Positions 26,501 through 42,109 of a DNA stretch of 64,000 nt are shown here, piece after piece (position 1 is the stretch's first letter; every line of letters begins with the position of its first letter). The position numbers and the translations under genes were made by a program. Origin of the DNA: Candidatus Aenigmatarchaeota archaeon (GTDB lineage Archaea; Thermoplasmatota; Thermoplasmata; Halarchaeoplasmatales; Halarchaeoplasmataceae); contig JBKHKA010000007.1 in the NCBI GenBank assembly GCA_046537845.1, forward strand, positions 1,249 to 65,248, written 5' to 3'. The notes beneath the pieces are model-generated. The model ran no database searches. It had not been told where the DNA came from and saw only the letters and a program-made list of their open reading frames with translations.

Positions 26501-26539
26501 AGATCTATTCAGTCTACGGGCAGATGGACTGCTCAACCC

Positions 26540-27364: not shown

Positions 27365-27517
27365 GATGTTTACCTTTTTGTTAAAGGAGAAAGTTCTTTA
27401 CTTTTAAGTTTTCGCACCTCCATCAATGGTTTTGAGTCATTTTGACCCCGACTTTGTGAGAAAGATTTATATTCAAAATCCTTTTTTATATGAGTGCGAG
27501 TTAGAGAGCAGAAATGT

Positions 27518-28006
27518 ATGAAAAGAAAAATTGACGACCGAGGTGTCGTAGGTTTTTACGAAGATGTACCCGCCCTTCTCATCGTCGTAGTTGCAACTGT
27601 TATATTTTTGGGCAGTATGTATTCTGCGGTACAGAGACACGGCCAAAAGAGTTCGGTCTCTGACTTCGAAAGAGATGCTATCGAATTCGCCGAGGCAGTG
27701 AAAGCTTCGCCGCTCCTCTTATACGAAAGCAATGTAGGACAGTTCGACGCCACTAAAGTTCAGTATATAGGTTCTGAAAATTTAACACAATCTCTCAACT
27801 ACCCCGATTTCTATTATAGAATCACCCTTGCCGATGTGAGCAATTATTCTATACGATACAACCAGACATGGTCCAGGGAGCCCGATTTTAATTTTACTGA
27901 GGAACATTATGAAGAGGGGAGAAAGGTGATCAATCTTTCGGTGAACATAGTGGTCGACAGCGATGAAATACATCCTGCTCGACTGCGGGTGGAGGTGTGG
28001 AAATGA
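27518..28006 (+). CDS. Small pilin-like protein (162 aa) with a charged leader and one N-terminal hydrophobic helix
   Basis: MKRKIDDRGVVGFYEDVPALLIVVVATVIFLGSMY. The DDRG motif is shared with the 1423-aa protein. The body is beta-rich with N-x-S/T sequons. Start moved from GTG 27494 to ATG 27518. Confidence 0.65.
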   Translation: MKRKIDDRGVVGFYEDVPALLIVVVATVIFLGSMYSAVQRHGQKSSVSDFERDAIEFAEAVKASPLLLYESNVGQFDATKVQYIGSENLTQSLNYPDFYYRITLADVSNYSIRYNQTWSREPDFNFTEEHYEEGRKVINLSVNIVVDSDEIHPARLRVEVWK

Positions 28007-28527
28007 GACTTTTGGTCAGATCAAATAAGGGTCAATCGAGTCTTTTAGACGCATTGATATTTTTCAGCATCGCATTGATCGCTTCCGCGATCTTGATCTT
28101 CGCACCATTCCCTGGAAGCTCTCCGGAAACGAAGGAAGTGATGAGACTTTACGGTGAGAGTACTCTCGATTCTTACCTTCACTCGACTCTCAACCACACC
28201 TCCTACGAATACCAAAATGAAACGATCCATCTCGACGATAGAACGGTATCTGAATTGGTGGTGGAGAACCTATATCTGAGAGATAACACAGATGTGAATA
28301 ATGGCAGTTTGAGAGAGGGTATAGAGAGAGATCTCAATGAAACATTAGATGCTCTGGTCATATCACAATATGATTACAATTTTACCGCCTGGTCTTCTGA
28401 AAACGCTTCTTTCGGGTACGGCCAACAGACCAAAGGTGTGGATGAGATGAACTCCTTTTCACAAGATTTACACACACCGGATCAAAACGCGACCTATACT
28501 GCGAACCTCAAGATCTGGCTGGCGTGA
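28003..28527 (+). CDS. Small pilin-like protein (174 aa) with a class III signal-peptide-like N-terminus
   Basis: MRLLVRSNKG|QSSLLDALIFFSIALIASAILIFA has a basic leader, a G-Q junction and a hydrophobic helix. Its ATG overlaps the upstream stop as ATGA. Confidence 0.7.
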   Translation: MRLLVRSNKGQSSLLDALIFFSIALIASAILIFAPFPGSSPETKEVMRLYGESTLDSYLHSTLNHTSYEYQNETIHLDDRTVSELVVENLYLRDNTDVNNGSLREGIERDLNETLDALVISQYDYNFTAWSSENASFGYGQQTKGVDEMNSFSQDLHTPDQNATYTANLKIWLA

Positions 28528-28617
28528 GGATCGAACGTGAACCAAGATTCACCACCTAAAAGCGGAATACATAAATAATCATCCCAACAATTATGATATA
28601 ATAAAAGAGGTATAGTT

Positions 28618-31600
28618 TTGACCCGTAGAAGATTGGATGATCGCGGGAAGATACCCTTCGCCCTTGTAGGAGTCGTTCTTATCATACTTTCAACCACCGC
28701 TTTTGCCATGATAGGACAGGTCGAGAGATCTGACCGGGATGTATCTGTATATGATCCAAATCGTCAGACTTCAGAGGCCGCCGAAGAAGCTCGAAACGAT
28801 CTAGCCAAGAGAGCACATCACCTGGTACTTCAAGAGATACATGAATCGACCAAAGAGCGAGACCCGGATATGAGCTCTCTTCAAACAAATGTGGAGGAAT
28901 CTTTTGAAGGATATATCAACGCCACCTATCCCTCTAAAGCGAGTAACAGTATAGTTTATATCGATGATTGGTCCCTCCAGATAGTATCTGACGCTAGGTC
29001 CACTCCAGAAACGAAAGACCATTTCCACTCCCAGGGAGAATCGGTAGAGCCCTTCCAGGCATCCTCATTGTATGAAGGGGATCACAGGAACAGGACACAA
29101 TATGGGGATGAAAGAGCTCCTCTCTACGGCAGGGTCATGGGCGAACTAGACATGTCTGTGTACAGCGAGGGGTCTGGACACACCGTGAACTACACCAAAC
29201 GATTTCACGAGAACGTGTATTCACCTGTATTCTACTTGAAGGGGCGGTTCAGAGAGTTCAAAAGCGAATCACGAGACCCGTTCGGAGAAGTCGGAAAGTT
29301 GATCCGGTATCAGTTATCCACCATCACTCAGACTAGAACTCTCTTCGGTAATGCTAGCGGAGGCTACGGAGAGAACGAGGGAGATATAGAAAGTTTGCTT
29401 AGTAAAGAGGATGTGGAGATCGCTGTGAATCTAGCTCTGTTGTTGGAAGCGGCCAGACTGTACGGAGATTATGACCGTGAGATAGCGGAAGAGATGGGCG
29501 TGGATTCTGAATTAGAAGATTATGCCGATAACGGGACTATAGATTCCGCGGATGTTTATATCATGCATAGGAATGTTAATAACCAAGAAGTCGACGCCGG
29601 GAAGGTGCTGGCACAGGCGATCTATCCTTATGGAGAGGATTTCGTTCTCGACCTTTACGAGCTTTTTTGGGGCGGGGAGATAGTAGATCCTACTCTTTCC
29701 GAACCTGTGGTCGATTGGGATGCCATGGAAGATAAAGGGGAAGATTGGGCCGAAGAGCAGGTGAGGACTTGGTTGGAGGTATATAGAGAATGGTTAGATA
29801 TCCCGGAACAGCTGGATTCCCAGCAGGCTTCCGCTACCATAGAGACCATGGAAGGAAGCATGTCTCCATACGAGTGGGAATGCTATTCTACAGATCCCCC
29901 TCATCCCGTCGGAGGACGATACTATGTGTTCAGCCGAGGTCCATATGATTATTCATCTGGAACCTGGAATATGGAAGCGGAGGAAGTTCCAGATACTATA
30001 GACCTCATCCTTGGAGACCCTGACAATCAGGATATGGACCCTGAACCCTATGTACTCAATTTCGATTCGGATTTCAGCAACGTCGGGAGCAGAAGTATCG
30101 AGTATTATCTTGTGGAAGAATCGCTGATCGCCAAGCATGACCAGGGCCGTAATACGCCTTATTACGACACCTTGGAGTACATCCTGAAGACCATCAACCG
30201 AAGCATAAGACAGCGATCAGAAAATGTAGACGGTGAAGAAGAAAAGGGATTCATGGACACGGTCAGTCACAATATGGCCGAAACGATAGGCACGAAAGGA
30301 TTCGATTACGAGATAGATCCAGAAGATAACAGATCCGTGTTGACCAACGGTACTGATTTTATGATCCAAAATGATGATGGAGCGATCCAAGAAGGGTTGA
30401 AAGAATTTGAGGATGAAGCTCAGGACTTCAATAAAAGGGACGATTGGTGGAGTGAAGGGGCCTATAAGCGGGAATATGAGGACGATTTTCTATACCACTT
30501 GACGAGCGAATCCGTGGACCTTTGGTATGAAGCCGTAGTCAATCTTTATGACGGAGGGGTCGAAAGGCAGGATAATCCAACTGGTTCAGTTTCGTTGAGC
30601 ACACCGGACGAAGAGCAGAGAAGCGATGGTGAATCTTCAGAAGGAACCTTCGCCTTCCGCCAGGATGCGATGGAAGATGTCAATGAAAGGGTTAGAGACA
30701 TAGCTGTACCTAGGAGAGATTCATTTAAAGACGGAGGGTGGCAGACCACGATCGCCCCGCCCTGCTGGAGCTGTCCCGAATGCCAGAACTACAGGAACAA
30801 CATAATCCCAGGGGACGCACAGGCCACTTGGACCGATCAAGCTATATGGGACAGATTGTGGAACAACATCCAAGATGCGACGGAACAGGTGGTGGGTGAG
30901 CAGGGACTCATATCTCAGAACCAGATATCCCAGCAGTTGAAGGAAGATATGGATGAGACCACCGATACCGGCGAGTACGAGGGAGAGCGTTCCGGAGAGG
31001 GGAACTTCTACGATTTCGTTCTGGAGAATGTAGCGGTCAGGACTATAGGCGAACAGGGTGAAAGAGAAAATATGCTTTTGAACCTCTCACAGTCCGAGGG
31101 TTGGCTCCAGCATAAATTCCAGGAGAGAACTTTGCGCGACATCCAAAGGAATACGTACGTGAATCAGGAAGAAGTCTTTTTGGCCACGAACTTAACGCAG
31201 CCTAGATACAATTGGCGTGTCAACCGCACCTACGACCGAGAGAGGCAGAGGATACTCAACGAGAGTTATGAGGTCGAATTTTCCAATTATCTGAGTGAAG
31301 ATGGCGACCTTTCCATAGAGATAGACTATCCTGAGGAGGGTCAGCACTTTGTGGACGTGCAGGATAGGTATGCTGAAGAACCGGAACTCCGGACCAACAT
31401 GTCTTGGAGCTCTTTCCAAACCGCCATAGAGGTCTCCATAAAAGGTAATCTAGATGTCAACACTACCACGGACCGAAGGAACACGCCTATAGGTGTCCAT
31501 AAACCGACTTGGTACAACGGCACACTAGAACTCGATTACAACTACACTTTACCCCTACACACCGCCCAGCCCCTTGAATCAGGGTGGAGAACCGGCGATA

Positions 31601-32889
31601 TAGATTATAAGATGACTAGGAGTTATTTCGGCCTCGATGAAGACGAAACTGTACAATCGGATAGACCCCTGAAAGAAGATGCTATATACATATCTCGACC
31701 TATGATGAACCTTTCCCGGGCCCAGAGTGATGTTCTTTCAAGGTCGACAAATACCATGGACTCGCTCCGCGGACATATCAGAGGGTATCCTCATTCTGTC
31801 CTTCCTTCAGTGTATAATACCAGTTCCGATCTGACACTGCTGATGAGCACTATAGATGATGTGTATTATGAGAACTACAACGATACCGACTATTTCCAAT
31901 TCATGGACGATCAGGAGCAGATAATCAGCAGAGAAAGCGAAGACAAGAGTGTCTTTGAATACCCATACATGGGCTATTCCTTGGATTACGACTTGGAAGA
32001 TGACCCGTTGAAGCCTAATTACCGATGCAACCGGACGGATATCTCCTTTGAGTTGGCTGACCAGGAATTCAGCTTCGAAGCTCAGCGTTGGGGAAGTATG
32101 GACTTAAAAGTAGATGTGGATCCATCCCGAGATGAAAGATTGGTGATAAAGGCATACAAGAACACAACGGACGATAATTTCACCCTTGAGACGAGCTATC
32201 CTCCCAAACGCCTCTCAGCCGATGAAATGAGTTTATACGATGTAGAATCTAGATTTTTCTCAGACATAACTCTGCCAGCTCTGGGGCACAACTACTCAGT
32301 GGACGTAGGTATCCAAGCAAGAGAAGGTGACCTTCCCGCTGATATCGAGGGATGGTTCGAAAAGGCGGTAGAAGGAAAAAATGATTCCTACGACGGTTTG
32401 GTCCGTTTCAGTAAGGACCTACTCAAGCAGATGCATGAAGATCCTGAGGTCTTCGAAGAGACGGAGATAGAAGATATAGGTATCTACTTCCACGTGAATC
32501 GTAGTATAGATCGAGATGAAGATATGGAAAAGCGTTTCATATATTGGACCAACCGTACCTCCGGCCAAGAAATAATCCGATACTCTAGACTCCTCATCAA
32601 CGACATGAGATCTATAGGAAGAAAGTTAGGTGAAGAATATCCCGCTCCGTCCCTTTACAGACGTGCTGATAAAGACATGATGAGCAATTATTCCTTTGAA
32701 GCAGTAGAAGTAAGGTCTGATGGTAACTACTCTAAAGGAAATCTAGCCTGGTGGGCCTCTGCAGAACCTTCCATAGGTGTGGGGCGGAAAGGGGAATACT
32801 TCAAGGCGGAACTCGGAAGAGCTGTCTTCGAGCACGAAGAAAAATACGGGATAAAAAGATATCAGAAGTACGGGTCGTTTGGGAATTAG
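28618..32889 (+). CDS. Giant (1423 aa) acidic surface protein with a prepilin-like N-terminus; paralog of 667-6075
   Basis: TTG start 8 nt after an agagg box. N-terminus TRRRLDDRGKIPFALVGVVLIILSTTAFAMI. Shares NLALLLEAARLY with the 1802-aa protein. Many N-x-S/T sequons and one CWSCPEC motif. No catalytic motif recognised. Confidence 0.8.
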   Translation: MTRRRLDDRGKIPFALVGVVLIILSTTAFAMIGQVERSDRDVSVYDPNRQTSEAAEEARNDLAKRAHHLVLQEIHESTKERDPDMSSLQTNVEESFEGYINATYPSKASNSIVYIDDWSLQIVSDARSTPETKDHFHSQGESVEPFQASSLYEGDHRNRTQYGDERAPLYGRVMGELDMSVYSEGSGHTVNYTKRFHENVYSPVFYLKGRFREFKSESRDPFGEVGKLIRYQLSTITQTRTLFGNASGGYGENEGDIESLLSKEDVEIAVNLALLLEAARLYGDYDREIAEEMGVDSELEDYADNGTIDSADVYIMHRNVNNQEVDAGKVLAQAIYPYGEDFVLDLYELFWGGEIVDPTLSEPVVDWDAMEDKGEDWAEEQVRTWLEVYREWLDIPEQLDSQQASATIETMEGSMSPYEWECYSTDPPHPVGGRYYVFSRGPYDYSSGTWNMEAEEVPDTIDLILGDPDNQDMDPEPYVLNFDSDFSNVGSRSIEYYLVEESLIAKHDQGRNTPYYDTLEYILKTINRSIRQRSENVDGEEEKGFMDTVSHNMAETIGTKGFDYEIDPEDNRSVLTNGTDFMIQNDDGAIQEGLKEFEDEAQDFNKRDDWWSEGAYKREYEDDFLYHLTSESVDLWYEAVVNLYDGGVERQDNPTGSVSLSTPDEEQRSDGESSEGTFAFRQDAMEDVNERVRDIAVPRRDSFKDGGWQTTIAPPCWSCPECQNYRNNIIPGDAQATWTDQAIWDRLWNNIQDATEQVVGEQGLISQNQISQQLKEDMDETTDTGEYEGERSGEGNFYDFVLENVAVRTIGEQGERENMLLNLSQSEGWLQHKFQERTLRDIQRNTYVNQEEVFLATNLTQPRYNWRVNRTYDRERQRILNESYEVEFSNYLSEDGDLSIEIDYPEEGQHFVDVQDRYAEEPELRTNMSWSSFQTAIEVSIKGNLDVNTTTDRRNTPIGVHKPTWYNGTLELDYNYTLPLHTAQPLESGWRTGDIDYKMTRSYFGLDEDETVQSDRPLKEDAIYISRPMMNLSRAQSDVLSRSTNTMDSLRGHIRGYPHSVLPSVYNTSSDLTLLMSTIDDVYYENYNDTDYFQFMDDQEQIISRESEDKSVFEYPYMGYSLDYDLEDDPLKPNYRCNRTDISFELADQEFSFEAQRWGSMDLKVDVDPSRDERLVIKAYKNTTDDNFTLETSYPPKRLSADEMSLYDVESRFFSDITLPALGHNYSVDVGIQAREGDLPADIEGWFEKAVEGKNDSYDGLVRFSKDLLKQMHEDPEVFEETEIEDIGIYFHVNRSIDRDEDMEKRFIYWTNRTSGQEIIRYSRLLINDMRSIGRKLGEEYPAPSLYRRADKDMMSNYSFEAVEVRSDGNYSKGNLAWWASAEPSIGVGRKGEYFKAELGRAVFEHEEKYGIKRYQKYGSFGN

Positions 32890-32914: not shown

Positions 32915-35900
32915 TTACTCTTCTTCATCCAGGTCGGCACCGCAGGCCCAACACTTATCCGCCCCGGGTTCTAGTTTATTATTGCAGACAGGACATTTTA
33001 TTTTCTCTTTCTCTTCAACTTCACCCTCAGTTTTTTCTTCAGACCCCGGCTGCTCTTCTTGGTCAAGTCCTGACCCTTTGTGGCTCCATATGCCTCCCGA
33101 GGAAACCTTATCAGACTCGGATTCTTCTTCCAGCATCTTCGTCACTTCATCCTCTAATTCCTCTTCACCTTCGCTCTCTTCATCATCCAATGCTGGGCCA
33201 ACGGGTTCAGATCCCACTTCTGATCCCGTGAAAGAGCTATCTGGTTTCTCCGTGGTGACGCCTTCTTCACTGAAAGATCTTACTTCCGCATAATCTCTTC
33301 CGCATCCTAGACACTCTCCTTCGACCATGAGACAATCGTTGTGGTAAGCATTTCCACACTGGCATTCTAAGCTGCTCTCGGGATCTATCGGGCTGTTGCA
33401 GATATCACAGTCTTTTGATGGCTTAGGCCGTGATTTGGAGGAATATATACCCATACCAGCAGCACCAGCCCTAGCCGCTCCGCTCTCACCCATATAGTTC
33501 CCGTCTTGAGGCCTAGGCGGTGAAGACCTTGATGAAGATGCCCTAGACGTAGAGACTCTAGTCGGTCTAGTCGATCTCTTTTTCTTTAGTGATTTCAATT
33601 TTTCGCCTTTTTTCTGCCTGATCTTGGAAAATTTCGATTCTTTAACCGGAAGCAGTTTTTCTTGTTCCTCCCGTCGCCTTTTCCAGTAAACGAATAACCC
33701 TATCAATATAACTGCGATAGGTATCGGGAGGAGATACCACCAATTTATCCCAACGGGGCCAACTTTGGTTTCTGACTGGTATTCGTTACCGGCGGCATCT
33801 TCTACAACGATCTGGTAATCCACATCACTGAATCCCACATCATCCCCTGATATAGTCGCCTTATACTCCCCACCGGCTCTTTTCATCTCCTTTTCTTTCC
33901 AACCGTCATCCTCTTCATATCTGAGGATAACTCTCTCTACGGAGCTCGCTCCACTGTCTATAGAAGCTGTCACGGTCATCTCGTTTTTCCAAACCGTATC
34001 CGAGGTGTCAAAGTCTTTCAAAGAGGGTGTGGTCAGATCTATCTTCAGCCACTCTGTTTTTCCTTCTTCGTTCAGGTTTCCCGCATTATCAAGTGCTCTT
34101 ACACCAAGATAGAACTGGCCTTCTCTATCGATCATAAAACTCCCTTGATATTCCTCCCAATCTCTATCTTCGCCCAATCTATACTGCAGTATCCTTACTC
34201 CTGATCCCCCTTCATCGTCAGCATATATCTTCACCTCGGGAGGAGCGTTATACCACCCGTTGCTATCGGGCTCGGAGATTTCGTATTTGATCTCAGGCTC
34301 CTGTGTATCTACTTTAATCTGAGATGTGTCGGCATTTTCTTCATCTGAGCTTTTCAGACCTGCATTGTTCTCGGCTAGATATTCTACGGTGTGTTCGCCG
34401 TTCTCAAGTTTTATCTCCACCACGTCAGATTCGGCTTTTTGCCATTCACCTGTTTCATCATCACTGATTATCCTGTACTTTATCGAAGACACTCCCGAGT
34501 TACCGTCCTCCGCGCTTATGTTGACCGCTGGCTCCTCTATATGCCAATCGTTTTCCCCCCCTGGGTTTGGAGAATTGAGTTCTACAGATGGAGCTGTTTT
34601 ATCAATCCTTATCACCTGGAGTTTTTCTTCTTCCACATTCCCTGCGGTGTCTACAGCCCTGTAATACAGACTGTTCTCCCCCTCTTCTCCTATGGTTATG
34701 CTTCCACCGTCACCCTCTATTTCCTCCCATCCCTCGCCTACTCGATATTCTATATGATCTACTCCTGAATAGCCGTCTTCAGAACTAAAGCTCACCTCTA
34801 CATCCCCTATGTACCAGCCATCTTCTCCCTCGGGGCCGTCCAAAGCCACATGAGTAGTGGGTTCGATAACATCTATCTTGAAGCTTTCATCATTTATATC
34901 TTCTTGATTTCCTCCATTATCTATGGAATAGAACTGAACCTCGTGGGTTCCGGAACCTGAAACAGTGGTACCGCCGCTGGCACCATCGATCTCCTGCCAC
35001 TCCCCATCGTCTATCTTGTACAATATACTGTCGACTCCTGAATGGGCGTCCTCCGCACTGAACTGTAGCTCGACATCGCTCCTGTACCAACCGTTCTGAG
35101 GACCCTCGCCTTGTAATGTAAGGGAAGTATCCGGCGGATCTTTATCTATGGTAAAGGAGTATTGATTGGATTTCTCTTCGTTCCCAGCCACGTCTACCGC
35201 ATATATGTAATACTCCACCTCGCTGCCTGCGTCCTGATCAGGGATATCACCGCTGTACTCGTCACCAGTTGTAGAATTCATTGGGCTGGCCTGCCAAACA
35301 CCTCCGTCGACCCTATACCTCACCTCGAGTGAATTCTCGTCGACCCCGCTGTGCTGGTCGGTTATCCTCGCCGTGATCGTATATGGGCCATAACCTTCCC
35401 ACCCTTCGACAGGATCGTGTTCTATCTCGGGAGAATATGTATCCTCCATGTATTCCACATTGACCTCGCTCAAAGAGGGCGTGATCTGCCCGTTCGATGT
35501 TTCAAAGGTGGCTCTGTACTGTATGTATCTGTCCACTGGACTCGGCACCTCACCACCGTTCGAGGCCTCTGCCCAATCTGACCAGCTGTTACCGTCGGGA
35601 GATGTCCTGGTCTCCATAGTGAGTGAAGTACCTGAAGGTTCATCCGCATCCCAGTGGATGGTACCCCAATCATACATCCCATCTCCGGTATCATAAACGC
35701 TTGATACTAAGGTTCCAGAATCCTCGTGGGTTTCGACTATCGCCTCCATGGTCGTTATCACATCGTCATCCGCCCAATCCATAGTTTGCGGACTCGTTGT
35801 GATCTCCCCATTATAATAGTATTGACCATTTTCTCCAGTGAAACCTACGGTGCTCAGATCTCCCAGTGTATATTGACCCAACTTGTCACCTCCCTGTACA

Positions 35901-36451
35901 GGGATGGGGAGTTGATCACTACTAGTATCCCAAGTCTTGATGGTCCAAGATTCTGGATCAAAGGTTTCAGTTTCAGCTGAAAAATATTCATCTTGGTTAC
36001 CTGTTGGGCGTAATATCTTGAGCTTGAAAGCAGAATGGCGGTCGGCACAGGTAACCGTGAATTCGATTATCTCACCACCTCGGTCGATATTGAAATCATC
36101 TCGACCTGGAAAAGTAGTATATCCAGGATCCCAATAATAATCGTCGTTAGGCGACTCCGCCGCTCCCACCTGAAACTCATACGTATCCAGCATCACTTCG
36201 CCTGAAGAAGTTGTGGTATCCAAATTTGTTAAGTCACCGGATTCAAAATCGGACTGTGTAGTCTGGGTCCATGTTTCCGTGGATAAGGGTTTCCGAGGTT
36301 TCTCAGCTGTTGGGGATACATTGATAGTTGAATTCTCCTGAGGAGTCGAAGCCGAGGAGGGCATGGACATAAAAACGACTAACCCTACAGAAGTCAATAA
36401 GATACCTATGGTTAGGATTATCAAGGATTTTTCGAACGATTTATTTTTCAT
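32915..36451 (-). CDS. Single-pass receptor/adhesin-like protein (1178 aa): signal peptide, N-terminal globular domain, six Ig-like repeats, TM helix, cytoplasmic C4HC3 zinc finger, acidic linker, terminal zinc ribbon
   Basis: Signal MKNKSFEKSLIILTIGILLTSVGLVVF. Repeats follow the consensus D-x-x-x-P...GWY...D-x-x-SGV...Y-R...W...AGN. TM helix WWYLLPIPIAVILIGLFVYW followed by KRRREEQE. Finger CDIC-x11-CQC-x4-H-x2-C-x6-CLGC. C-terminus CPVCNNKLEPGADKCWACGADLDEEE. Confidence 0.85.
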   Translation of the reverse strand: MKNKSFEKSLIILTIGILLTSVGLVVFMSMPSSASTPQENSTINVSPTAEKPRKPLSTETWTQTTQSDFESGDLTNLDTTTSSGEVMLDTYEFQVGAAESPNDDYYWDPGYTTFPGRDDFNIDRGGEIIEFTVTCADRHSAFKLKILRPTGNQDEYFSAETETFDPESWTIKTWDTSSDQLPIPVQGGDKLGQYTLGDLSTVGFTGENGQYYYNGEITTSPQTMDWADDDVITTMEAIVETHEDSGTLVSSVYDTGDGMYDWGTIHWDADEPSGTSLTMETRTSPDGNSWSDWAEASNGGEVPSPVDRYIQYRATFETSNGQITPSLSEVNVEYMEDTYSPEIEHDPVEGWEGYGPYTITARITDQHSGVDENSLEVRYRVDGGVWQASPMNSTTGDEYSGDIPDQDAGSEVEYYIYAVDVAGNEEKSNQYSFTIDKDPPDTSLTLQGEGPQNGWYRSDVELQFSAEDAHSGVDSILYKIDDGEWQEIDGASGGTTVSGSGTHEVQFYSIDNGGNQEDINDESFKIDVIEPTTHVALDGPEGEDGWYIGDVEVSFSSEDGYSGVDHIEYRVGEGWEEIEGDGGSITIGEEGENSLYYRAVDTAGNVEEEKLQVIRIDKTAPSVELNSPNPGGENDWHIEEPAVNISAEDGNSGVSSIKYRIISDDETGEWQKAESDVVEIKLENGEHTVEYLAENNAGLKSSDEENADTSQIKVDTQEPEIKYEISEPDSNGWYNAPPEVKIYADDEGGSGVRILQYRLGEDRDWEEYQGSFMIDREGQFYLGVRALDNAGNLNEEGKTEWLKIDLTTPSLKDFDTSDTVWKNEMTVTASIDSGASSVERVILRYEEDDGWKEKEMKRAGGEYKATISGDDVGFSDVDYQIVVEDAAGNEYQSETKVGPVGINWWYLLPIPIAVILIGLFVYWKRRREEQEKLLPVKESKFSKIRQKKGEKLKSLKKKRSTRPTRVSTSRASSSRSSPPRPQDGNYMGESGAARAGAAGMGIYSSKSRPKPSKDCDICNSPIDPESSLECQCGNAYHNDCLMVEGECLGCGRDYAEVRSFSEEGVTTEKPDSSFTGSEVGSEPVGPALDDEESEGEEELEDEVTKMLEEESESDKVSSGGIWSHKGSGLDQEEQPGSEEKTEGEVEEKEKIKCPVCNNKLEPGADKCWACGADLDEEE
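33310..33347. repeat. 38-nt block identical to 38234-38271 (zinc-finger coding region of the two paralogs)
   Basis: gacactctccttcgaccatgagacaatcgttgtggtaa is present at both positions, verified base by base. Confidence 0.95.
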
Positions 36452-36567: not shown

Positions 36568-37080
36568 TCAATCTTCAAAGATGAAAGTATGATATTGGGT
36601 CTCACCGCTGACTATCAATTCGCACCTCATCACTCTGAAACCCTCTCCTGAGACAAGATCAAGATAACGGTGCTCGTCATCGATCTCCGCAAGCTCCGTT
36701 TCGTTGGTGGTATAATTGATCTGTGATGGATCCCAAAGATGTACCCTTTCACTATCTTCAGCGGTGATATCGGATGATGCGAGTTTACCTTGCGCTTCAA
36801 GACTCACCTCACTAGAACTTATCCTGATCTCATATTCTTCCCCATCTATCTCCGATGGTAGTTCCACAGCGGAAGCGTTCTCCCTGAAGGTGAAATAAAG
36901 TGTAGAATTAGAATGGGTGTTAGAAAGTTCATTCACTCTAGAAGAAATCTCTTGAGAGAGGCTCTTTAACCTAGTTTCATCTATATCCTCTCTTGCAGCT
37001 GAAAAAACGAAGATTGAAAATATCACCAAAGCCATGGTGAAGATAGAGACGATGATTTTTGAAAGTGCCCAATCCAACAT
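36568..37080 (-). CDS. Small N-terminally anchored protein (170 aa); paralog of 6072-6605
   Basis: MLDWALSKIIVSIFTMALVIFSIFVF helix. Shared blocks with the 177-aa protein are listed under that feature. Start codon lies 1 nt after the upstream stop. Confidence 0.7.
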   Translation of the reverse strand: MLDWALSKIIVSIFTMALVIFSIFVFSAAREDIDETRLKSLSQEISSRVNELSNTHSNSTLYFTFRENASAVELPSEIDGEEYEIRISSSEVSLEAQGKLASSDITAEDSERVHLWDPSQINYTTNETELAEIDDEHRYLDLVSGEGFRVMRCELIVSGETQYHTFIFED

Positions 37081-37081
37081 C

Positions 37082-37618
37082 TTACCACTCTAATACATCC
37101 AGCTCGACATAGTAATCGTTTTCGACGCCGTCTTCATTCATATCGAAATCCGCGGGCTTTTTAACTATAGATATCCGCTGATTCCCTCCTGGGATTATCA
37201 GGGTATCGTTATCCGGCGAGCACATAGGGATGCCCTTACGACCGTGGGTGACTAATATCGATTTTTCAGGTTCCTCTCTGAGTTGATAATAGATGGCTCT
37301 TGTGTGAACAGAACCGGACAAAGGAGCACCCACCTTTACCTCTTCAGTCTCGGGAGGAAATTCTATTTCTAAAACCGTGCTCGCATTCACACCTTGGATA
37401 TACACGCTCTCCACGGCAGATGCTATCTGATTTACTTCTTGGGAGAGCTGTTCTTCTGCACTGTTAGTGCGGTAGTGAGACAGGGCGGAGAGCATAGACG
37501 GTATAGCTATAGCGAGTACGATAGCTATTATCAAAAGCCGGAAAGGATAATCCATAACTCCTTCTTCGGAGCGTTTCAAGTTCCTTGGATCGCATCTTTT
37601 CTTTTCTATTCCATCCAT
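37082..37618 (-). CDS. Small pilin-like protein (178 aa)
   Basis: Charged leader MDGIEKKRCDPRNLKRSEEG followed by VMDYPFRLLIIAIVLAIAIPSMLSAL and a beta-rich body. Confidence 0.65.
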   Translation of the reverse strand: MDGIEKKRCDPRNLKRSEEGVMDYPFRLLIIAIVLAIAIPSMLSALSHYRTNSAEEQLSQEVNQIASAVESVYIQGVNASTVLEIEFPPETEEVKVGAPLSGSVHTRAIYYQLREEPEKSILVTHGRKGIPMCSPDNDTLIIPGGNQRISIVKKPADFDMNEDGVENDYYVELDVLEW

Positions 37619-37637: not shown

Positions 37638-40600
37638 TTATTCCTCTTCATCCAGGTCAGCACCGCAGGCCCAACACTTGTCTGCCCCTGGTTCTAGGTC
37701 GTTATTACATATCGGGCATTTTGTAGGACCTTTATCTTTATCTTCTTCTTCAGTGGATTCCTCCTCGATCGACTCCTTTTCCTCTTCTGACCTTTCATCT
37801 AAGTTTTCTTCGGGTTCTAGGTCTTCTTTGCCCCCTTCCTCTTCCTGCTCTTCATCTATCTCTTCATCCTTATCCTGTTCCATCTTTTCTTCTTGCTCAC
37901 TGACTTCACTCGGTTCTTCTTCCATGTCCTCAGCTTGCTCATCCTGCTCGACCCCCTCCTCCAACTCTTCTTCATCCTCAATCGTCTCGCTCTCTTCGGA
38001 CTCCATTTCATCTGAGGGTTCCTCTTCTTCTTTAGCTATCTCCTTCATCTCCTCTGCTTCTTTTTTGACTTTTTCTTCGGGCTCAGTACTGGTTTCGTCT
38101 GCTAATATCTTTATATCCGCTCCATCCTCGGTTGTCTCTTCGGTCTCCCCCCTCTCTTCCTCCTCAGTGCCTTCATCAGAACCTCCTTCTTCCGTGAAGG
38201 ATTTAACGGCCGCATAATCTCTTTCACATTCAGGACACTCTCCTTCGACCATGAGACAATCGTTGTGGTAAACGTTCCCGCATTCACATTTCAATCTACT
38301 CTCAGGATCGGTCGGGCTGTTACAGATGTCACAGTCTTCTGAAGACGTCTGTGAAAGAGCCGATACAGGCATCGTTTCCCCTCTAGCCCCTGGTGGAGGG
38401 GTGGAGGATCTACCACCGTTCCCTACGTCTGCCGTTCTTTCGGCTCGTTGACTCTTCAATTCTTTCAATTTCCTCCCTCTTTTCTCCCTGATTTTTGAAA
38501 ATTTAGATTCTTTTATAGGCATCAGTTTTTCGTGTTTTTCTCTGCGCTTTTTCCAGAACACAAAGAGAGCTAAAAGCACCACCGCGATGGGTATCGGTAC
38601 AAAGTACCACCAGTTTATGCCGACATCTGCTACCTTTGTCTCCGTTTCCTCGACATTTCCAGCTCCATCTCTCACCACTATACGATAGTCAACATCGCTG
38701 AAGCCCACTTCGCCGCCGGAGATGGTGGCGACATATTCCCCATTTTCTAAGTTCATCTCTTTTTCTTTCCAACCGTCTCCTGAGTCATATTCTAAGATGA
38801 CTCGATCGATGTCGGAGTTATAATCCTTCGCCTCCACAGAGACGGTGAGATCGTTTCTCCAAACCGTAGGACTCGATTCAGCAGATTCTATCCTGGGTCC
38901 TTCAAGATCCATAAGATATTCAAAATCCTCAATATATTCATTCCCCGCCTCGTCTTTTACGTATAATTCTACCTCTAGTTCACCCGACATGCTCACATCA
39001 AAAGTGGTGTTCATTTTACCGATATCACCTGAATTCTCACGTGTCTCATTCTCCCATTCTCCCCTCCTATTTATCCGACAACTCACTTCACTAACGCCGG
39101 ATAATTCGTCCTCGGAGTCCACAGAAATCGTACCTGGAGAATTTACCCATCCTTGCTCATAAGGTGGATCGGTTTCATAATATAGATCGGGAGAAGAGGT
39201 GTCCACTTTGATCTCTTTTTCATTCACCTCGCTTTCCCTACCAGCCTTATCTACACTGTGATATTCTACTGTATAAATACCGTCTTCAAGAGTTATCGTT
39301 TCCTGGTATTCTGACCATTCTTCCTCCCCATCTATCCTGTAATTGATGTGTGATACTCCAGATATATTATCCTGAGCATTCAATTCAACTTCGGGGGCGG
39401 TGACATACCATCCTTTGTTGCCTTCCTCGCCAAGGACCTCGGCAGATGCTTGAGGATCTTCCAGATCGATCTTGATCTGAGTCGTTCCTCTTTCTTCATT
39501 GCCGGCCCTATCGAAACACCGATACTCTAACTGAAACTCACCAGATTCATCCAGATCGATCTCGCTTTCATATGTACGCCATTCTTCTTCACCAAACCTG
39601 TACTCGATGGTTTCGATATCTGAGTTTTCGTCGGTGGCAGATATCTCTACCTGAACATCTTCAAGATACCATCCGTTCTCACCTGAAGGCTCAGGCTTTA
39701 TCACTTCCACCTCTGGTGGAGACATATCGATCTTCACCTCTACCGAGTCGACTCCCTCCTCGTTCCCGACCTGATCATCAGAATAGTATTCCACCTCGTA
39801 TATGCCAGATTGCTGCAGCTCGATGGGCTGAGCGTACTCTTCCCACCCATCATCGAGTCTGTACCACGTGGTACCCACCCCGGAGTCCCCATCACTTGCA
39901 TCCAATTGAACCTCTACTTGACTCGCAAACCACCCGTCGTCCCCCTCCTCGCCGGATAGCACGGGCTCCGTCTCCGGAGATTCCTTATCCACCTTGAAAG
40001 GATAATATTGATCCTCATCAGGAGATGTTGCCACTAACCCGGCTTCATTTTCCGCCTCGATATAGTACCTGACTTCAGTAGAGTGGTTAAGATCTGGTAT
40101 CTCGGTTTCATATAACTCATCACCTACCTGCCCCATGGTCAGTTCATTCCAGCTGCTGCCCTCATCGATGCTGTAGTAGGTGCTTGGGTTTTCGGCCAAT
40201 CCGCTCCCTCCGTCCTGGACACTCGCGGTGATGGTATAACCTCCCTCGGCCTGCCATTCATCCAAAGAGCTGTGCTCTATATCCGGAGGGTCTTCATCCA
40301 CTCGGTACTCTATACGGATGCTGTTCAAAGAAGGCGTTTCTCTGCCAGTTGCAGACGTGAAGGTCGCTCTGTACTGAATATATTGGTGAGTATCATCACC
40401 CGGGACGTTCCCCTCATTCTCAGCTTCCTCCCAGGATGTCCAATCCTGCCCGTTTGCGGAAGTCCTCGTTTCTATAGTCAGGTTCGATCCTTGAGGCACG
40501 TCGGCATCCCAACTTATGCTCTCCCACTCGTACATGTGCTGTCCCGCATCGTGCACGTTTGATTCATGAACGCCCTCGTCACGATGGGTTTCTACTTCAG

Positions 40601-41384
40601 CCTCCAAAGTGGTTATCGCGTCATCGTCGCTGATATGTCCCATCTCCGTAGGAGTACTAGTTACCTCCCCATCATGACTCCAATAACCATTGTTTCCAGT
40701 CAAAGCAACTGCAGCGATGTCGCCAAGTGCGTAAAGACTCAATCGATCTTCTTTTTCTATAGGTATATCCAGCCCGGTCCGTTCATTTATCTGCCCAGGG
40801 TTCAAGTTTGAAAAGATCTCTGATTGAGCCGCATAAAACTCGGCGCTCTCACCAGGGTTAACAGCATCTGGATCGGTGGGCCTGAGAACTTTCAGCTCTA
40901 TGTCTCCAGCTAGATCTGGGTCATCCCCCACATTTATCCTGAACTCTCTGATCTTGCCTCCTCTATCTGCTCTAAAATCATCCCTACAGCCGAGGAAAGT
41001 TGATCCCTTGGGCCAATAATAATATCCCCCTCTGCTCCCCTGTTCAGCCGCTTCAGCCGCCCCTATCTGGATCGTGTCAGTATCCAACTTTACCTTACCC
41101 GGCTCCGAATCGAGGTCTAGATCTTCGCTGTCCCCCTGTTTGAAGTCGCTCTGCGACCACTGCTCCCAAGAAGCTACGCTTTTGACTCCCTCCTCCTCTC
41201 TTGAGGGGAGATCTTCTTCCCTTGAAAAGAATGTTTTCGCTTCGGAGATACCTCCGTTAGCTAAAAAGGGCCCCCAAAACGAGAGCATCAAAAACACGAC
41301 TATGGCCGTGACAAAAATCAATGTGAATACGAAAGATAGTTCGGAAACAAAGCCGTTTTTCATTTTATCATCCATGGAAGCCAC
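37638..41384 (-). CDS. Single-pass receptor/adhesin-like protein (1248 aa), paralog of 32915-36451, with a longer acidic cytoplasmic linker
   Basis: N-terminal anchor LSFVFTLIFVTAIVVFLMLSFW, six Ig-like repeats, TM helix WWYFVPIPIAVVLLALFVFW (about 38553-38615) then KKRREKHE. Finger CDIC-x11-CEC-x4-H-x2-C-x6-CPEC (38226-38333). An ~160-aa E/D-rich tract. Terminal CPICNNDLEPGADKCWACGADLDEEE. Confidence 0.85.
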   Translation of the reverse strand: MASMDDKMKNGFVSELSFVFTLIFVTAIVVFLMLSFWGPFLANGGISEAKTFFSREEDLPSREEEGVKSVASWEQWSQSDFKQGDSEDLDLDSEPGKVKLDTDTIQIGAAEAAEQGSRGGYYYWPKGSTFLGCRDDFRADRGGKIREFRINVGDDPDLAGDIELKVLRPTDPDAVNPGESAEFYAAQSEIFSNLNPGQINERTGLDIPIEKEDRLSLYALGDIAAVALTGNNGYWSHDGEVTSTPTEMGHISDDDAITTLEAEVETHRDEGVHESNVHDAGQHMYEWESISWDADVPQGSNLTIETRTSANGQDWTSWEEAENEGNVPGDDTHQYIQYRATFTSATGRETPSLNSIRIEYRVDEDPPDIEHSSLDEWQAEGGYTITASVQDGGSGLAENPSTYYSIDEGSSWNELTMGQVGDELYETEIPDLNHSTEVRYYIEAENEAGLVATSPDEDQYYPFKVDKESPETEPVLSGEEGDDGWFASQVEVQLDASDGDSGVGTTWYRLDDGWEEYAQPIELQQSGIYEVEYYSDDQVGNEEGVDSVEVKIDMSPPEVEVIKPEPSGENGWYLEDVQVEISATDENSDIETIEYRFGEEEWRTYESEIDLDESGEFQLEYRCFDRAGNEERGTTQIKIDLEDPQASAEVLGEEGNKGWYVTAPEVELNAQDNISGVSHINYRIDGEEEWSEYQETITLEDGIYTVEYHSVDKAGRESEVNEKEIKVDTSSPDLYYETDPPYEQGWVNSPGTISVDSEDELSGVSEVSCRINRRGEWENETRENSGDIGKMNTTFDVSMSGELEVELYVKDEAGNEYIEDFEYLMDLEGPRIESAESSPTVWRNDLTVSVEAKDYNSDIDRVILEYDSGDGWKEKEMNLENGEYVATISGGEVGFSDVDYRIVVRDGAGNVEETETKVADVGINWWYFVPIPIAVVLLALFVFWKKRREKHEKLMPIKESKFSKIREKRGRKLKELKSQRAERTADVGNGGRSSTPPPGARGETMPVSALSQTSSEDCDICNSPTDPESRLKCECGNVYHNDCLMVEGECPECERDYAAVKSFTEEGGSDEGTEEEERGETEETTEDGADIKILADETSTEPEEKVKKEAEEMKEIAKEEEEPSDEMESEESETIEDEEELEEGVEQDEQAEDMEEEPSEVSEQEEKMEQDKDEEIDEEQEEEGGKEDLEPEENLDERSEEEKESIEEESTEEEDKDKGPTKCPICNNDLEPGADKCWACGADLDEEE
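38234..38271. repeat. 38-nt block identical to 33310-33347
   Basis: Same 38-mer as in the paralog. The 3'-terminal ~85 nt of the two genes (32915-33000 vs 37638-37723) are also about four-fifths identical by eye. Confidence 0.95.
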
Positions 41385-41554: not shown

Positions 41555-42109
41555 TTAAGGTCTTTCGACCCATATGCTCGTTTGGACTGATTCGGTTCCG
41601 ATCAGACCTTCGTAGGAGGCCTCGATCTCTATCTTGGCGTGGTCCTCGTTTTGGCGCAGTCTGCAACCGTCTAAATCTAATTCCGCCTGACCTGTAGAGT
41701 TCGTCGTAGCAACTGCGCTAGCTCCGGCACCTTCTGCCTCTACGTCAACACCGGCCATCACATTACCGTCTTCATCATATATCGTTACAACCAAATATTC
41801 GTCGTATTCCTTCTCCGGTGGCAAGGTGTTGTCCGAATCATCCGGGTCGGGCCGTTCAGATCCCTTGTAATATGCTCTTCCATCTTCGTATAATTCCTCA
41901 CAGATCACACTTTCATGGGTTTCGTTAGTACCGTGTTGAACCTCGTGCACTCTGACGTCGTCTATCTTCGGCTCCGTTGTCACCATGAATCCCAGTATCG
42001 CCGCTAGGGAGACCGCCGCTATTATCACTATCAGCAGTATGTAGAGAGGTATGCCCATGATCTGGGCGTATTCGTCATCCTCTATTCTTCGGGGGGGTAG
42101 CGAGTCCAT
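41555..42109 (-). CDS. Small pilin-like protein (184 aa) with a beta-sandwich-like C-terminal domain
   Basis: Leader MDSLPPRRIEDDEYAQIMG, helix IPLYILLIVIIAAVSLAAILGFMV, and a C-terminal VVTIYDEDGNVMAGVDVEAEG...TTNSTGQAELDL resembling a CarboxypepD_reg-like fold. Confidence 0.65.
   Translation of the reverse strand: MDSLPPRRIEDDEYAQIMGIPLYILLIVIIAAVSLAAILGFMVTTEPKIDDVRVHEVQHGTNETHESVICEELYEDGRAYYKGSERPDPDDSDNTLPPEKEYDEYLVVTIYDEDGNVMAGVDVEAEGAGASAVATTNSTGQAELDLDGCRLRQNEDHAKIEIEASYEGLIGTESVQTSIWVERP

What the first reader, a model, noticed from the sequence alone, without database searches (positions are those of the whole stretch)
27518..32889. Module of two small pilin-like proteins plus a 1423-aa protein with a prepilin-like N-terminus, convergent with the pilus operon
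Three co-directional genes are involved, the first two overlapping as ATGA. The N-termini are KRKIDDRG|VVGF...ALLIVVVATVIFL, SNKG|QSSLLDALIFFSIALIASAIL and TRRRLDDRG|KIPFALVGVVLIILS. All have a basic leader, a small residue and a hydrophobic helix, like archaeal class III signal peptides. If it is processed, the 1423-aa product would be a pilin-like subunit carrying a ~1390-aa acidic, sequon-rich head. That would suit a tip adhesin or effector displayed by the neighbouring machinery. No catalytic or known adhesion domain is recognisable by eye.
Basis: partly seen in the sequence, partly recalled or inferred. Interest (0 to 1): 0.75.

Follow-up and report, generated by a model that had tools for sequence, protein, structure and literature searches.

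The report
Pilin-like trio with a giant surface protein
Three neighbouring genes of a salt-lake archaeon encode two small pilin-like proteins and a 1423-residue sugar-coated surface protein with a pilin-like front end; the trio is conserved across the phylum Thermoplasmatota, belongs to a type IV pilus-like machine, and has an unknown fold and function.

Summary
In detail: three real, co-directional genes (27518-28006, 28003-28527, 28618-32889) with an ATGA overlap, each with a short basic leader, a Gly and one N-terminal hydrophobic helix.

All three are acidic and enriched in N-glycosylation sequons (giant 28 against 9.2±2.8 expected). The window is from Ca. Natronoplasma (Thermoplasmatota).

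The trio is a conserved cassette. It is adjacent to the giant in 15 of 23 giant-anchored loci and in 3 of 3 loci anchored on the first small gene.

It is linked to a type IV filament (TFF) ATPase/platform pair in about four lineages. In one lineage the two small genes head the ATPase operon.

The second small protein has a textbook archaeal prepilin site ([KR]G|QS…D). The first is plausible (RG|VVGFYED).

The giant has a conserved G[KR][IV]PFA motif with a basic +1 residue, which is atypical, so its cleavage is open.

The giant's body has no recognisable fold: AlphaFold pLDDT about 45, and no Foldseek, PDB or Pfam match beyond 60 N-terminal residues of DUF7286. In other clades the body carries an inserted GH25 lysozyme or a lamin-tail (LTD) domain.

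Best reading: minor pilin-like subunits plus a giant modular pilin or anchored adhesin/effector served by the TFF machine. This is a new variant of a known kind. A second, divergent module lies at 667-6605.

The parts
27467..27493 (+). A/T-rich TATA-like elements (TTTATATT, TTTTTATAT) upstream of the first gene; possible archaeal promoter giving a short-leader or leaderless mRNA
   Evidence: Read from the sequence. This is inference only; no archaeal promoter tool was available.
27518..28006 (+). s1: 162-aa pilin-like protein, MKRKIDDRG|VVGFYEDVPALLIVVVATVIFL
   Evidence: 13 orthologues; F13 and E15 invariant; position -1 G/A and -2 mostly K/R; 5 sequons against 1.1 expected; weak DUF7287 hits in 4 of 13 members; hhalign against the s178 family, 72% probability, E 3.5e-5, over the N-terminal 62 columns; 28 clusters, all Thermoplasmata, all 'hypothetical'.
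28003..28527 (+). s2: 174-aa pilin-like protein, MRLLVRSNKG|QSSLLDALIFFSIALIASAIL; overlaps s1 as ATGA
   Evidence: 12 orthologues; Q11, S12 and D16 invariant; G10 at least 90%. The site matches the KGQ[IVL] sites of EppA substrates listed in PMC4371748; weak TadE hits in 3 of 12 members, best E 0.042; 7 sequons against 2.2 expected.
28603..28610 (+). AAAGAGGT, a Shine-Dalgarno-like element 7 nt upstream of the TTG start of the giant
   Evidence: Read from the sequence; inference.
28618..32889 (+). Giant: 1423-aa acidic, sequon-rich protein, MTRRRLDDRG|KIPFALVGVVLIILS; N-terminal module of about 350 aa conserved in 132 family representatives; body of unknown fold
   Evidence: (DUF7286, aa 7-67 only, 30.7 bits); structure and fold searches.
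32915..36451 (-). big1178: convergent 1178-aa type-I membrane protein with OmpL47-type barrel and Ig-like repeats, a TM segment, and a cytoplasmic Zn-ribbon/RING-like acidic tail
   Evidence: Conserved next to the trio in L001, L002, L004 and L007.
36568..37080 (-). s170: 170-aa pilin-like protein with no leader (MLDWALSKIIVSIF...)
   Evidence: DUF7266, E 3.3e-5, below Pfam's cut-off.
37082..37618 (-). s178: 178-aa pilin-like protein (…KRSEEG|VMDYPFRLLIIAIVLAIAI)
   Evidence: DUF7311, weak; N-terminus related to s1; next to the platform gene in L019, L022 and L023.
37638..41384 (-). big1248: paralogue of big1178
41555..42109 (-). s184: 184-aa pilin-like protein (…QIMG|IPLYILLIVIIAAV) with an Ig-like C-terminal part; candidate filament subunit
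   Evidence: weak CarboxypepD_reg and Big_1 hits; homologues lie directly upstream of the giant in L011 and L019 and next to it in L022.
42172..44196 (-). TFF platform protein (TadC/PilC/ArlJ type), single gene, about 10 TM segments
   Evidence: T2SSF, E 3.4e-5, 24.2 bits, just under the 25.2-bit cut-off.
44198..46018 (-). TFF assembly ATPase (VirB11/PilB/ArlI superfamily), 606 aa with an N-terminal extension
   Evidence: T2SSE, 5.2e-16; TadA, FlaI and VirB11 models, all below their equivalog cut-offs.
46071..46703 (-). g210: 210-aa cytosolic protein with 8 Cys, conserved just upstream of the ATPase
   Evidence: no Pfam hit; L002, L019, L023.
6072..6605 (-). Second module: 177-aa paralogue of s170
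   Evidence: A8 HMM, E 2e-21; DUF7266, 4.7e-5.
667..6054 (-). Second module: about 1795-aa distant paralogue of the giant. From the GTG at 6054 it starts MDDERA|VMVFVLIGIV, a canonical class III-type motif
   Evidence: (A6 profile, E 1.1e-14, N-terminal module).

Best explanation
The three genes are a conserved, Thermoplasmatota-specific accessory cassette of a euryarchaeal type IV filament (TFF) system.

s1 and s2 are small pilin-like (class III signal peptide) subunits. After Sec insertion they would be cut by a PibD/EppA-type prepilin peptidase in front of the hydrophobic helix, and would then act as minor pilins or pseudopilins.

The 1423-aa protein has a related N-terminal helix, followed by a conserved module of about 350 aa and a large N-glycosylated acidic body outside the cell. 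Most likely the two small subunits and the giant form a complex through their N-terminal helices. The ATPase/platform pair (44198-46018, 42172-44196) would load this complex at the start of filament or stub assembly, so the giant ends up displayed at the tip or on a short pseudopilus. This is analogous to bacterial minor pilins with PilY1 or GspK, to TadE/TadF/TadG, to modular pilins, and to the Sulfolobus bindosome.

The body would be a scaffold for adhesion or for acting on external substrates. In other clades it carries an inserted GH25 muramidase or a lamin-tail (LTD) domain.

Shown: gene reality, cassette conservation, motif conservation, external topology indicators, and linkage to TFF genes.

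Inferred: cleavage, complex formation, tip or stub location, and adhesion or effector role.
For: - Cassette conservation. s1-s2-giant are adjacent in 15 of 23 giant-anchored loci with enough flank and in 3 of 3 loci found through s1. This holds down to about 25% identity, often amid unrelated housekeeping genes, which argues for one functional unit.
- TFF linkage. An ATPase and/or platform gene lies within 10 kb in the window, L002, L019, L022 and L023. A rough binomial gives p about 1e-3, assuming 3 such ATPases per 2-Mb genome.
- Operon fusion. In L023, s1 and s2 are the first genes of a tight operon: s1, s2, fn3 protein, g210-like, ATPase, platform, s178-like, with gaps of -8 to 52 nt. The giant is divergent, 190 nt away. 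L019 has the same layout, with an s184-like gene directly upstream of the giant.
- s2 processing site. [KR]G|QS[SA]xxD followed by about 20 hydrophobic residues, with Q, S and D invariant. It equals the KGQx sites of EppA-processed Methanococcus pilins and meets the G/A/S(-1), charged(-2) rule (PMC4371748).
- s1 processing site. [KR][GA] at -2/-1, an acidic residue at +6 as in s2, and an N-terminal 62-column match to s178 of the ATPase operon.
- Giant family N-terminus. G/A at -1 and F at +4 are near-invariant, which is more than a plain anchor needs. The in-window paralogue starts DDERA|VMVF, a canonical site.
- External location. One N-terminal TM segment, a basic leader, and a 3-fold sequon excess.
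- Modular body. GH25 is inserted at about aa 820 in one clade, with apparently intact DVSHYQ and LDLE motifs in P0007 (sequence). LTD and S8 peptidase occur in other members.
- Literature. Euryarchaeal 'system 2' TFF loci are described as encoding several pilins, pilin-like proteins without a class III motif, and large adhesin-like proteins (bioRxiv 10.64898/2026.04.22.720090; PMC4858521).
Against: - The giant's conserved +1 residue is basic: K/R in 54 of 66 motif-bearing members and Q in 7. None of the characterised archaeal sites listed in PMC4371748 has this, so it may not be a peptidase substrate.
- No prepilin peptidase gene (multi-TM protein with GxGD) is present in the window.
- No Pfam pilin model (Pilin_N, Class_IIIsignal, TadE) reaches significance for any of the three.
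- No pilin fold could be confirmed. AlphaFold had only 11-12 sequences and gave pLDDT 45 and 44.
- Most loci (about 18 of 23) have no ATPase within 10 kb, so linkage is partial.
- Eight giant loci lack s1 and s2.
- A subunit of about 160 kDa would be far larger than any shown pilin.
Confidence: 0.55

Rival explanations
1. Membrane-anchored surface glycoprotein complex that is not a filament subunit. The N-terminal helices, at least that of the giant, are uncleaved signal anchors. The trio forms part of the glycoprotein envelope of these S-layer-less or wall-less archaea, or an envelope-embedded support or stator for the pilus machine, like ArlF/ArlG or the 'S-layer-like' proteins of archaeal T4P loci.
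For: - The basic +1 residue and the positive-inside pattern fit a type II anchor.
- Most cassettes sit among housekeeping genes without TFF genes nearby.
- Heavy sequon enrichment fits an envelope glycoprotein.
- Makarova et al. place S-layer-like large proteins in euryarchaeal T4P loci.
- Thermoplasmatales have an unordered glycoprotein layer instead of an S-layer (PMC12448462).
Against: - The invariant G/A(-1) and the [KR]G|QS..D motif of s2 are typical processing sites, not needed for anchoring.
- s1 and s2 head the ATPase operon in L023 and L019.
- The in-window paralogue has a canonical DDERA|V site.
- There is no similarity to any S-layer family or solved structure.
Confidence: 0.3
2. 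Bindosome-like or type II secretion-like display system for extracellular enzymes. The TFF machine builds a short pseudopilus of s1, s2 and other small subunits. Its job is to hold or release large hydrolytic or binding proteins (the giant; GH25, S8 and amidase relatives) for feeding on bacterial cell-wall debris or for attacking bacteria, rather than to make an adhesive pilus.
For: - GH25 is inserted in giants of L013, L014, L026 and L027, and a GH25 ORF follows the L008 giant.
- An Amidase_6 protein follows the L022 giant.
- An S8 peptidase shares a segment with the family.
- There is precedent for large class III-signal proteins that are not pilins, namely the bindosome (PMC4371748; bioRxiv 2026).
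Against: - The giant of this window has no recognisable catalytic domain.
- The enzyme domains are clade-specific insertions or neighbours, not the conserved core.
- No secretion or activity data exist.
Confidence: 0.12
3. Chance resemblance: unrelated membrane proteins that happen to have N-terminal TM helices next to a pilus operon.
For: N-terminal TM helices preceded by basic residues are common. A loose filter also picked ordinary signal peptides elsewhere in the window.
Against: The motifs and the gene order are conserved over about 130 family representatives and more than 20 loci, and adjacency to TFF genes recurs.
Confidence: 0.03

Closest known systems
Minor pilin tip complexes with a large partner in bacteria (FimU-PilVWX with PilY1; GspH-I-J-K of type II secretion; ComGD-G)
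   Same: Several small pilin-like proteins are encoded together with one much larger protein. They are linked to an assembly ATPase and platform, and the proposed role is priming assembly and presenting a large adhesive or functional head.
   Different: No sequence or fold similarity was detected. PilY1 has no pilin-like N-terminus, whereas the giant has one. The DUF2341/PilY-type domain reported in archaeal loci (PMC4858521) is absent. This is an archaeal machine with no outer membrane.
TadE / TadF / TadG of the bacterial Tad (Flp) pilus
   Same: Two pseudopilins of about 170-190 aa plus one larger protein with the same kind of N-terminal hydrophobic segment. The N-terminus of s2 (RG|QSAVIDAALIAPIL in distant orthologues) resembles the TadE motif, with weak Pfam TadE hits in 3 of 12 members.
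   Different: The hits are not significant (best E 0.042). TadG is about 500-600 aa with a vWA domain, whereas this protein is 1400-2000 aa with an unknown fold.
Modular type IV pilins (Streptococcus sanguinis PilB and PilC) and Sulfolobus bindosome substrate-binding proteins
   Same: A class III-type N-terminus is grafted on a large functional module. These are precedents showing that TFF machines handle subunits several times the size of a pilin (PMC8179133 abstract; PMC4371748).
   Different: Those modules have known folds (vWA, lectin, SBP) and canonical processing sites. Here the body is about 1390 aa with no recognisable fold, and the +1 residue is basic.
Pfam DUF7286 (with DUF7285/DUF7287, DUF7266 and DUF7311), uncharacterised archaeal families
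   Same: The giant passes the DUF7286 gathering score (30.7 against 27 bits). s1 weakly matches DUF7287/DUF7285, s170 matches DUF7266 and s178 matches DUF7311. This suggests a distant counterpart of the same gene set in other archaea.
   Different: Only aa 7-67 of the giant align to positions 2-62 of a 1000-position model. The small-protein hits are below cut-off. No paper in the held library mentions these DUFs. Which organisms the DUF families come from was not checked here.
Large adhesin-like and S-layer-like proteins of euryarchaeal clade 2 / 'system 2' TFF loci
   Same: The locus make-up matches the description: a single-gene platform, an ATPase with an N-terminal extension, several pilin-like proteins with and without class III motifs, and large surface proteins.
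   Different: The described adhesins are Ig-fold-rich, PilY-like or beta-helical. That fits big1178 and big1248 here, not the giant, which is mixed alpha/beta with no Ig or PilY signature. Assignment of this ATPase to clade 2 was not tested phylogenetically.

Membership tests
Archaeal type IV pilin-like proteins (class III signal peptide; PibD/EppA substrates) | G/A/S at -1 and a charged residue at -2, placed before (not after) the hydrophobic domain, near the N-terminus | tested here: met
   s1 DDRG|V, s2 NKG|Q, giant DDRG|K. Position -1 is G/A across orthologues. The rule is taken from PMC4371748.
Archaeal type IV pilin-like proteins (class III signal peptide; PibD/EppA substrates) | A +1 residue and following residues compatible with known substrates (Q for EppA; small or hydrophobic for PibD), followed by an H-domain of about 20 residues | tested here: inconclusive
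   s2 is met (Q+1 invariant). s1 is plausible (V/A/T at +1, then GF[FY]EE). The giant has K/R at +1 in 54 of 66 members, unlike the characterised sites. Its in-window paralogue has V at +1. FlaFind itself was not run.
Archaeal type IV pilin-like proteins (class III signal peptide; PibD/EppA substrates) | Actual cleavage by a prepilin peptidase | not testable with these tools
   Needs N-terminal proteomics or an in vitro assay. No peptidase gene is in the window.
Archaeal type IV pilin-like proteins (class III signal peptide; PibD/EppA substrates) | Genomic association with a TFF ATPase and platform | tested here: met
   Seen in the window, L002, L019, L022 and L023. s1 and s2 lie inside the ATPase operon in L023 and L019. 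Association is partial: most loci have no ATPase within 10 kb.
Archaeal type IV pilin-like proteins (class III signal peptide; PibD/EppA substrates) | Pilin fold: a long N-terminal helix packed on a beta-rich globular domain | tested here: inconclusive
   For the giant, aa 12-125 and 168-205 are modelled at pLDDT about 70-80 as three helices plus three strands. The rest is below 50 and there is no Foldseek hit.
Pfam DUF7286 | Score above the gathering threshold | tested here: met
   30.7 bits against a 27-bit cut-off; 6 of 11 close relatives also pass.
Pfam DUF7286 | Homology along the body of the model (1000 positions) | tested here: not met
   Only model positions 2-62 align. Distant family members match only at the N-terminus or not at all.
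PilY1-like / DUF2341 tip adhesins | Presence of the PilY1 beta-propeller or DUF2341 domain | tested here: not met
   No such Pfam or NCBIfam hit and no PDB sequence or fold match.
Archaeal S-layer proteins | Similarity to known S-layer families, or a C-terminal membrane anchor or sorting signal | tested here: not met
   No family hit. The only TM segment is N-terminal. A novel envelope protein is not excluded.
TadE/TadF pseudopilins | Significant match to the TadE N-terminal model (PF07811) | tested here: not met
   Best E 0.042 in 3 of 12 s2 orthologues; none for the window copy.

The most novel reading that the evidence does not exclude
The giant family would be a class of 'mega-pilins'. These are 1400-2000-aa subunits whose pilin-like N-terminus lets a type IV filament machine of wall-less or S-layer-less Thermoplasmatota present a large, evolvable scaffold. 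Enzymes such as GH25 muramidase are inserted into that scaffold, making a pilus-displayed tool for attacking or feeding on bacterial cell walls, with s1 and s2 as its dedicated adaptor pilins.
Probability: 0.15. Interest if true: 0.8.

Novelty: new variant of a known kind. Interest (0 to 1): 0.55.

Why it matters
Archaeal type IV filament loci are known to carry poorly understood 'large adhesin-like' genes, but what they do and how they connect to the filament is open.

This work defines a phylum-wide, unannotated three-gene cassette: about 130 representative clusters of the giant and 28 of s1, all labelled 'hypothetical'. It has clear processing-type motifs, physical linkage to the ATPase operon in some lineages, and a body that accepts enzyme insertions.

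That gives concrete, testable candidates for how uncultured Thermoplasmatota from hypersaline, marine-vent and gut habitats attach to or act on their surroundings. It would also extend the size range of proteins handled by pilin machinery.

If the giant is only a signal-anchored envelope glycoprotein, the finding is still a useful annotation of a conserved surface complex, but it is less surprising.

Tried and rejected
- **AlphaFold2 of the giant in two halves** (aa 1-750 and 700-1423) with the 11-12 sequences allowed gave mean pLDDT 45 and 44. Foldseek against the PDB gave no match at E ≤ 1e-3. The top hits (TRPML1, LptF, phage coat proteins) were rejected as noise.
- **Profile of 35 family members against PDB sequences:** nothing below E 0.36.
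- **Pfam and NCBIfam on all three proteins:** only the N-terminal DUF7286 hit.
- **Word-indexed homologue searches** with the giant and its alignment gave only 12-13 proteins. The exhaustive search was needed to see the 132-member family.
- **Attempt to reach the other archaea behind the DUF models.** The s1-profile search returned only Thermoplasmata. tblastn of both giants' N-termini against plasmids found nothing. Literature searches for DUF7285-7289, DUF7266 and DUF7311 found no paper.
- **Prepilin peptidase in the window:** none found using a multi-TM plus GxGD scan.
- **hhalign** of s2 against s170, s1 against s170 and s2 against s178 was not significant.
- **Upstream genes considered and rejected as part of the system:** they are cyanophycin synthetase and an S51 peptidase.


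Full report
**1. What is there**

The window carries three co-directional + strand genes.
- s1: 27518-28006, 162 aa.
- s2: 28003-28527, 174 aa. Its ATG overlaps the TGA of s1 as ATGA.
- The giant: 28618-32889, TTG start with AAAGAGGT 7 nt upstream, 1423 aa.

A database protein named 'hypothetical protein [Candidatus Natronoplasma sp.]' is 100% identical over the full 1423 aa. This fixes both the source (Thermoplasmatota) and the start of the giant. Orthologues of s1 begin MKRK…, which supports the ATG at 27518 rather than the upstream GTG.

Each protein has one predicted TM segment, at the N-terminus, and all are acidic (pI 4.4-5.0). All three are enriched in N-x-S/T sequons relative to shuffles:

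| Protein | Sequons observed | Expected from shuffles |
|---|---|---|
| Giant | 28 | 9.2±2.8 |
| s1 | 5 | 1.1 |
| s2 | 7 | 2.2 |

The cytosolic neighbours are not enriched.

**2. Surroundings**

Upstream lie cyanophycin synthetase (23804-26500) and an S51 peptidase (26540-27364), which are unrelated.

Downstream, on the minus strand and convergent with a 25-nt spacer, is a cluster. Read in its direction of transcription it contains:
- g210 (46071-46703), a protein with 8 Cys;
- a T2SSE ATPase (44198-46018);
- a single-gene T2SSF platform (42172-44196);
- the pilin-like s184 (41555-42109);
- big1248 (37638-41384);
- the pilin-like s178 (37082-37618; weak DUF7311 hit) and s170 (36568-37080; weak DUF7266 hit);
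- big1178 (32915-36451).

The two 'big' proteins are paralogous type-I membrane proteins with OmpL47-type barrel and Ig-like repeats and a cytoplasmic Zn-ribbon tail.

This make-up fits the published description of euryarchaeal clade 2 / 'system 2' type IV filament (TFF) loci. I did not test the ATPase phylogenetically.

**3. The trio is a conserved cassette**

A scan of one genome per species found 21 loci with relatives of the giant. All are Thermoplasmatota, including DHVE2 and Methanomassiliicoccales.

Profile searches of the loci find s1 and s2 next to the giant in 15 of 23 loci with enough flank. The usual order is s1-s2-giant. In L011 it is giant-s1-s2. In L019, L023 and L024 the small genes are divergent from the giant. 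Eight loci lack s1 and s2: L005, L006, L010, L015, L018, L020, L021 and L022.

Three look-ups anchored on distant s1 homologues all show s1, a gene of about 172 aa, then a giant of 1592-1603 aa, set among housekeeping genes.

An exhaustive HMMER search with aa 1-1200 found 132 representatives (50% identity clusters) at E ≤ 1e-3, and 72 at ≤ 1e-10. The distant ones match mainly aa 5-350 and are 1250-2000 aa long. Every named member is Thermoplasmata or Methanomethylophilaceae. The s1 family has 28 clusters, all 'hypothetical' and without Pfam domains.

**4. Link to the pilus-type machine**

An ATPase and/or platform gene lies within 10 kb of the giant in the window, L002, L019, L022 and L023. 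Assuming three such ATPases per 2-Mb genome, this is unlikely by chance (p about 1e-3).

More telling is the L023 operon, which reads s1, s2, fn3 protein, g210-like, ATPase, platform, s178-like, with gaps of -8 to 52 nt. The giant there is divergent, 190 nt away. L019 has the same layout, plus an s184-like gene directly upstream of the giant.

So the window shows a rearranged version of one system. Even so, in most lineages the cassette stands alone and the machinery must act in trans. Archaeal pilins commonly work this way.

**5. Are the N-termini class III signals?**

Criteria from PMC4371748 are: G/A/S at -1, a charged residue at -2, the site placed before the H-domain, and Q at +1 for EppA substrates (KGQI/V/L).

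- **s2:** [KR]G|QS[SA]xxD with Q, S and D invariant in 12 orthologues. This is a textbook site. Distant orthologues read RG|QSAVIDAALIAPIL, close to the TadE/Epd type, but Pfam TadE hits are weak.
- **s1:** [KR][GA]|x-x-G-F-[FY]-E-[ED] followed by the H-domain. hhalign aligns its Gly with that of s2, and both have an acidic residue at +6. Its first 62 columns match the s178 family (72% probability, E 3.5e-5). It is plausible.
- **Giant:** G/A(-1), K/R(+1), I/V, P, F/Y, A/S, conserved across the family. A [GA][KRQ]xSFA variant occurs in many others. An invariant Gly/Ala and Phe argue for specific recognition. A basic +1 is not seen in the characterised sites, so cleavage is open.

A distant paralogue in the same window (667-6054, minus strand) starts MDDERA|VMVFVLIG from a GTG at 6054. 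This is a canonical site. No peptidase gene lies in the window.

**6. The body of the giant**

Pfam gives only DUF7286, through aa 7-67 (30.7 bits against a cut-off of 27). NCBIfam gives nothing.

Only aa 12-125 and 168-205 (three helices and three strands) and aa 1210-1423 reach about 70-88. Foldseek against the PDB and a 35-sequence profile against PDB sequences found nothing. The fold is therefore unknown, and neither an adhesin nor an enzyme assignment can be made for this copy.

Family-wide invariant residues (G175, G244, D265, D309) and the A[VI]NLALLLE motif lie in the N-terminal module.

In other clades the body carries different domains:
- a GH25 muramidase inserted at about aa 820 (P0007/L013, L014, L026, L027; DVSHYQ and LDLE motifs present in P0007);
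- an LTD domain (L021; a sub-threshold hit in L018);
- an S8 peptidase that shares a segment with the family.

A GH25 ORF follows the L008 giant and an Amidase_6 protein follows the L022 giant. The body thus behaves as an extracellular scaffold that tolerates functional insertions.

**7. Mechanism proposed**

- Best reading (0.55): s1 and s2 are minor pilin-like subunits and the giant is a modular pilin-like or helix-anchored partner. They associate through their N-terminal helices and are loaded by the ATPase/platform, so that the giant is displayed at a filament tip or on a short stub for adhesion or for action on external substrates.
- Rival (0.30): an uncleaved, membrane-anchored envelope glycoprotein complex or pilus support.
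- Rival (0.12): a bindosome-like or T2SS-like enzyme display system.
- Chance resemblance: 0.03.

**8. Comparison and novelty**

The general idea, that large surface proteins and several minor pilins are encoded in euryarchaeal TFF loci, is published. This particular cassette, its phylum-wide spread, its motifs, the size of the pilin-like giant and its enzyme insertions are not described in the papers I could search.

It works most like minor-pilin/PilY1 or GspK tip complexes, TadE/F/G, and modular pilins, but it is not a sequence member of any of them. Formal membership in DUF7286 rests on 60 residues only. I rate it a new variant of a known kind, with interest 0.55.

Noticed in passing
window 667-6605 (minus strand): A second, divergent module. 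A 177-aa paralogue of s170 (6072-6605) is followed by an acidic ORF of about 1795 aa (667-6054, GTG start) with 30 sequons. The large ORF matches the giant-family profile (E 1.1e-14), shares the A[IV]xLALLLE motif, and starts MDDERA|VMVFVLIG, a canonical class III-type site.
   Followed up: partly
L013 4657-9408, L014 9986-14731 (aa 822-999), L026 10967-15772, L027 11015-15793; L008 14303-14785; L022 14795-18823: Giants of another Thermoplasmatota clade carry an inserted GH25 muramidase domain with apparently intact catalytic motifs. A GH25 ORF directly follows the L008 giant, and a 1342-aa Amidase_6 protein follows the L022 giant. Peptidoglycan hydrolases in archaea that have no murein hint at action on bacteria or their debris.
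   Followed up: partly
window 23804-27364: A cyanophycin synthetase (898 aa) and a convergent S51 (cyanophycinase-type) peptidase in an archaeon. The pair is conserved next to the trio in L001-L003 (in L004 only the synthetase was found). To my knowledge cyanophycin metabolism is rarely reported in archaea.
   Followed up: no
window 32915-36451 and 37638-41384 (minus strand): Two paralogous proteins of about 1200 aa with a signal or TM segment, OmpL47-type beta-barrel and Ig-like repeats, a second TM segment, and a cytoplasmic tail with Zn-ribbon/RING-like Cys motifs and a very acidic low-complexity stretch. This looks like a transmembrane link between the surface and the cytoplasm inside a pilus locus.
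   Followed up: partly
window 46071-46703 (minus strand): A 210-aa cytosolic protein with 8 Cys and no Pfam family. It is conserved immediately upstream of the TFF ATPase in L002, L019 and L023, so it may be a machine-specific accessory or regulator.
   Followed up: partly
L006 2873-4533; L005 and L006 upstream regions: In one MAG (T1Sed10_113R1) the giant gene is interrupted by about 1.66 kb between aa 539 and 540. Neither of its two contigs has s1 or s2 within about 1.25 kb upstream. This could be an insertion element, an assembly problem, or a decaying copy.
   Followed up: no
protein P0189: A fragment 100% identical to s1 of this window is labelled Candidatus Aenigmatarchaeota in a public MAG. 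This is probably a binning conflict.
   Followed up: no
window 18535-19452 (minus strand): Ribosomal protein S3Ae with a C-terminal helix-hairpin-helix (HHH_5) extension, 305 aa in total.
   Followed up: no
window 62515-63963 (minus strand): A 482-aa protein with GLUG motifs, likely another surface or adhesin-type protein, at the window edge.
   Followed up: no
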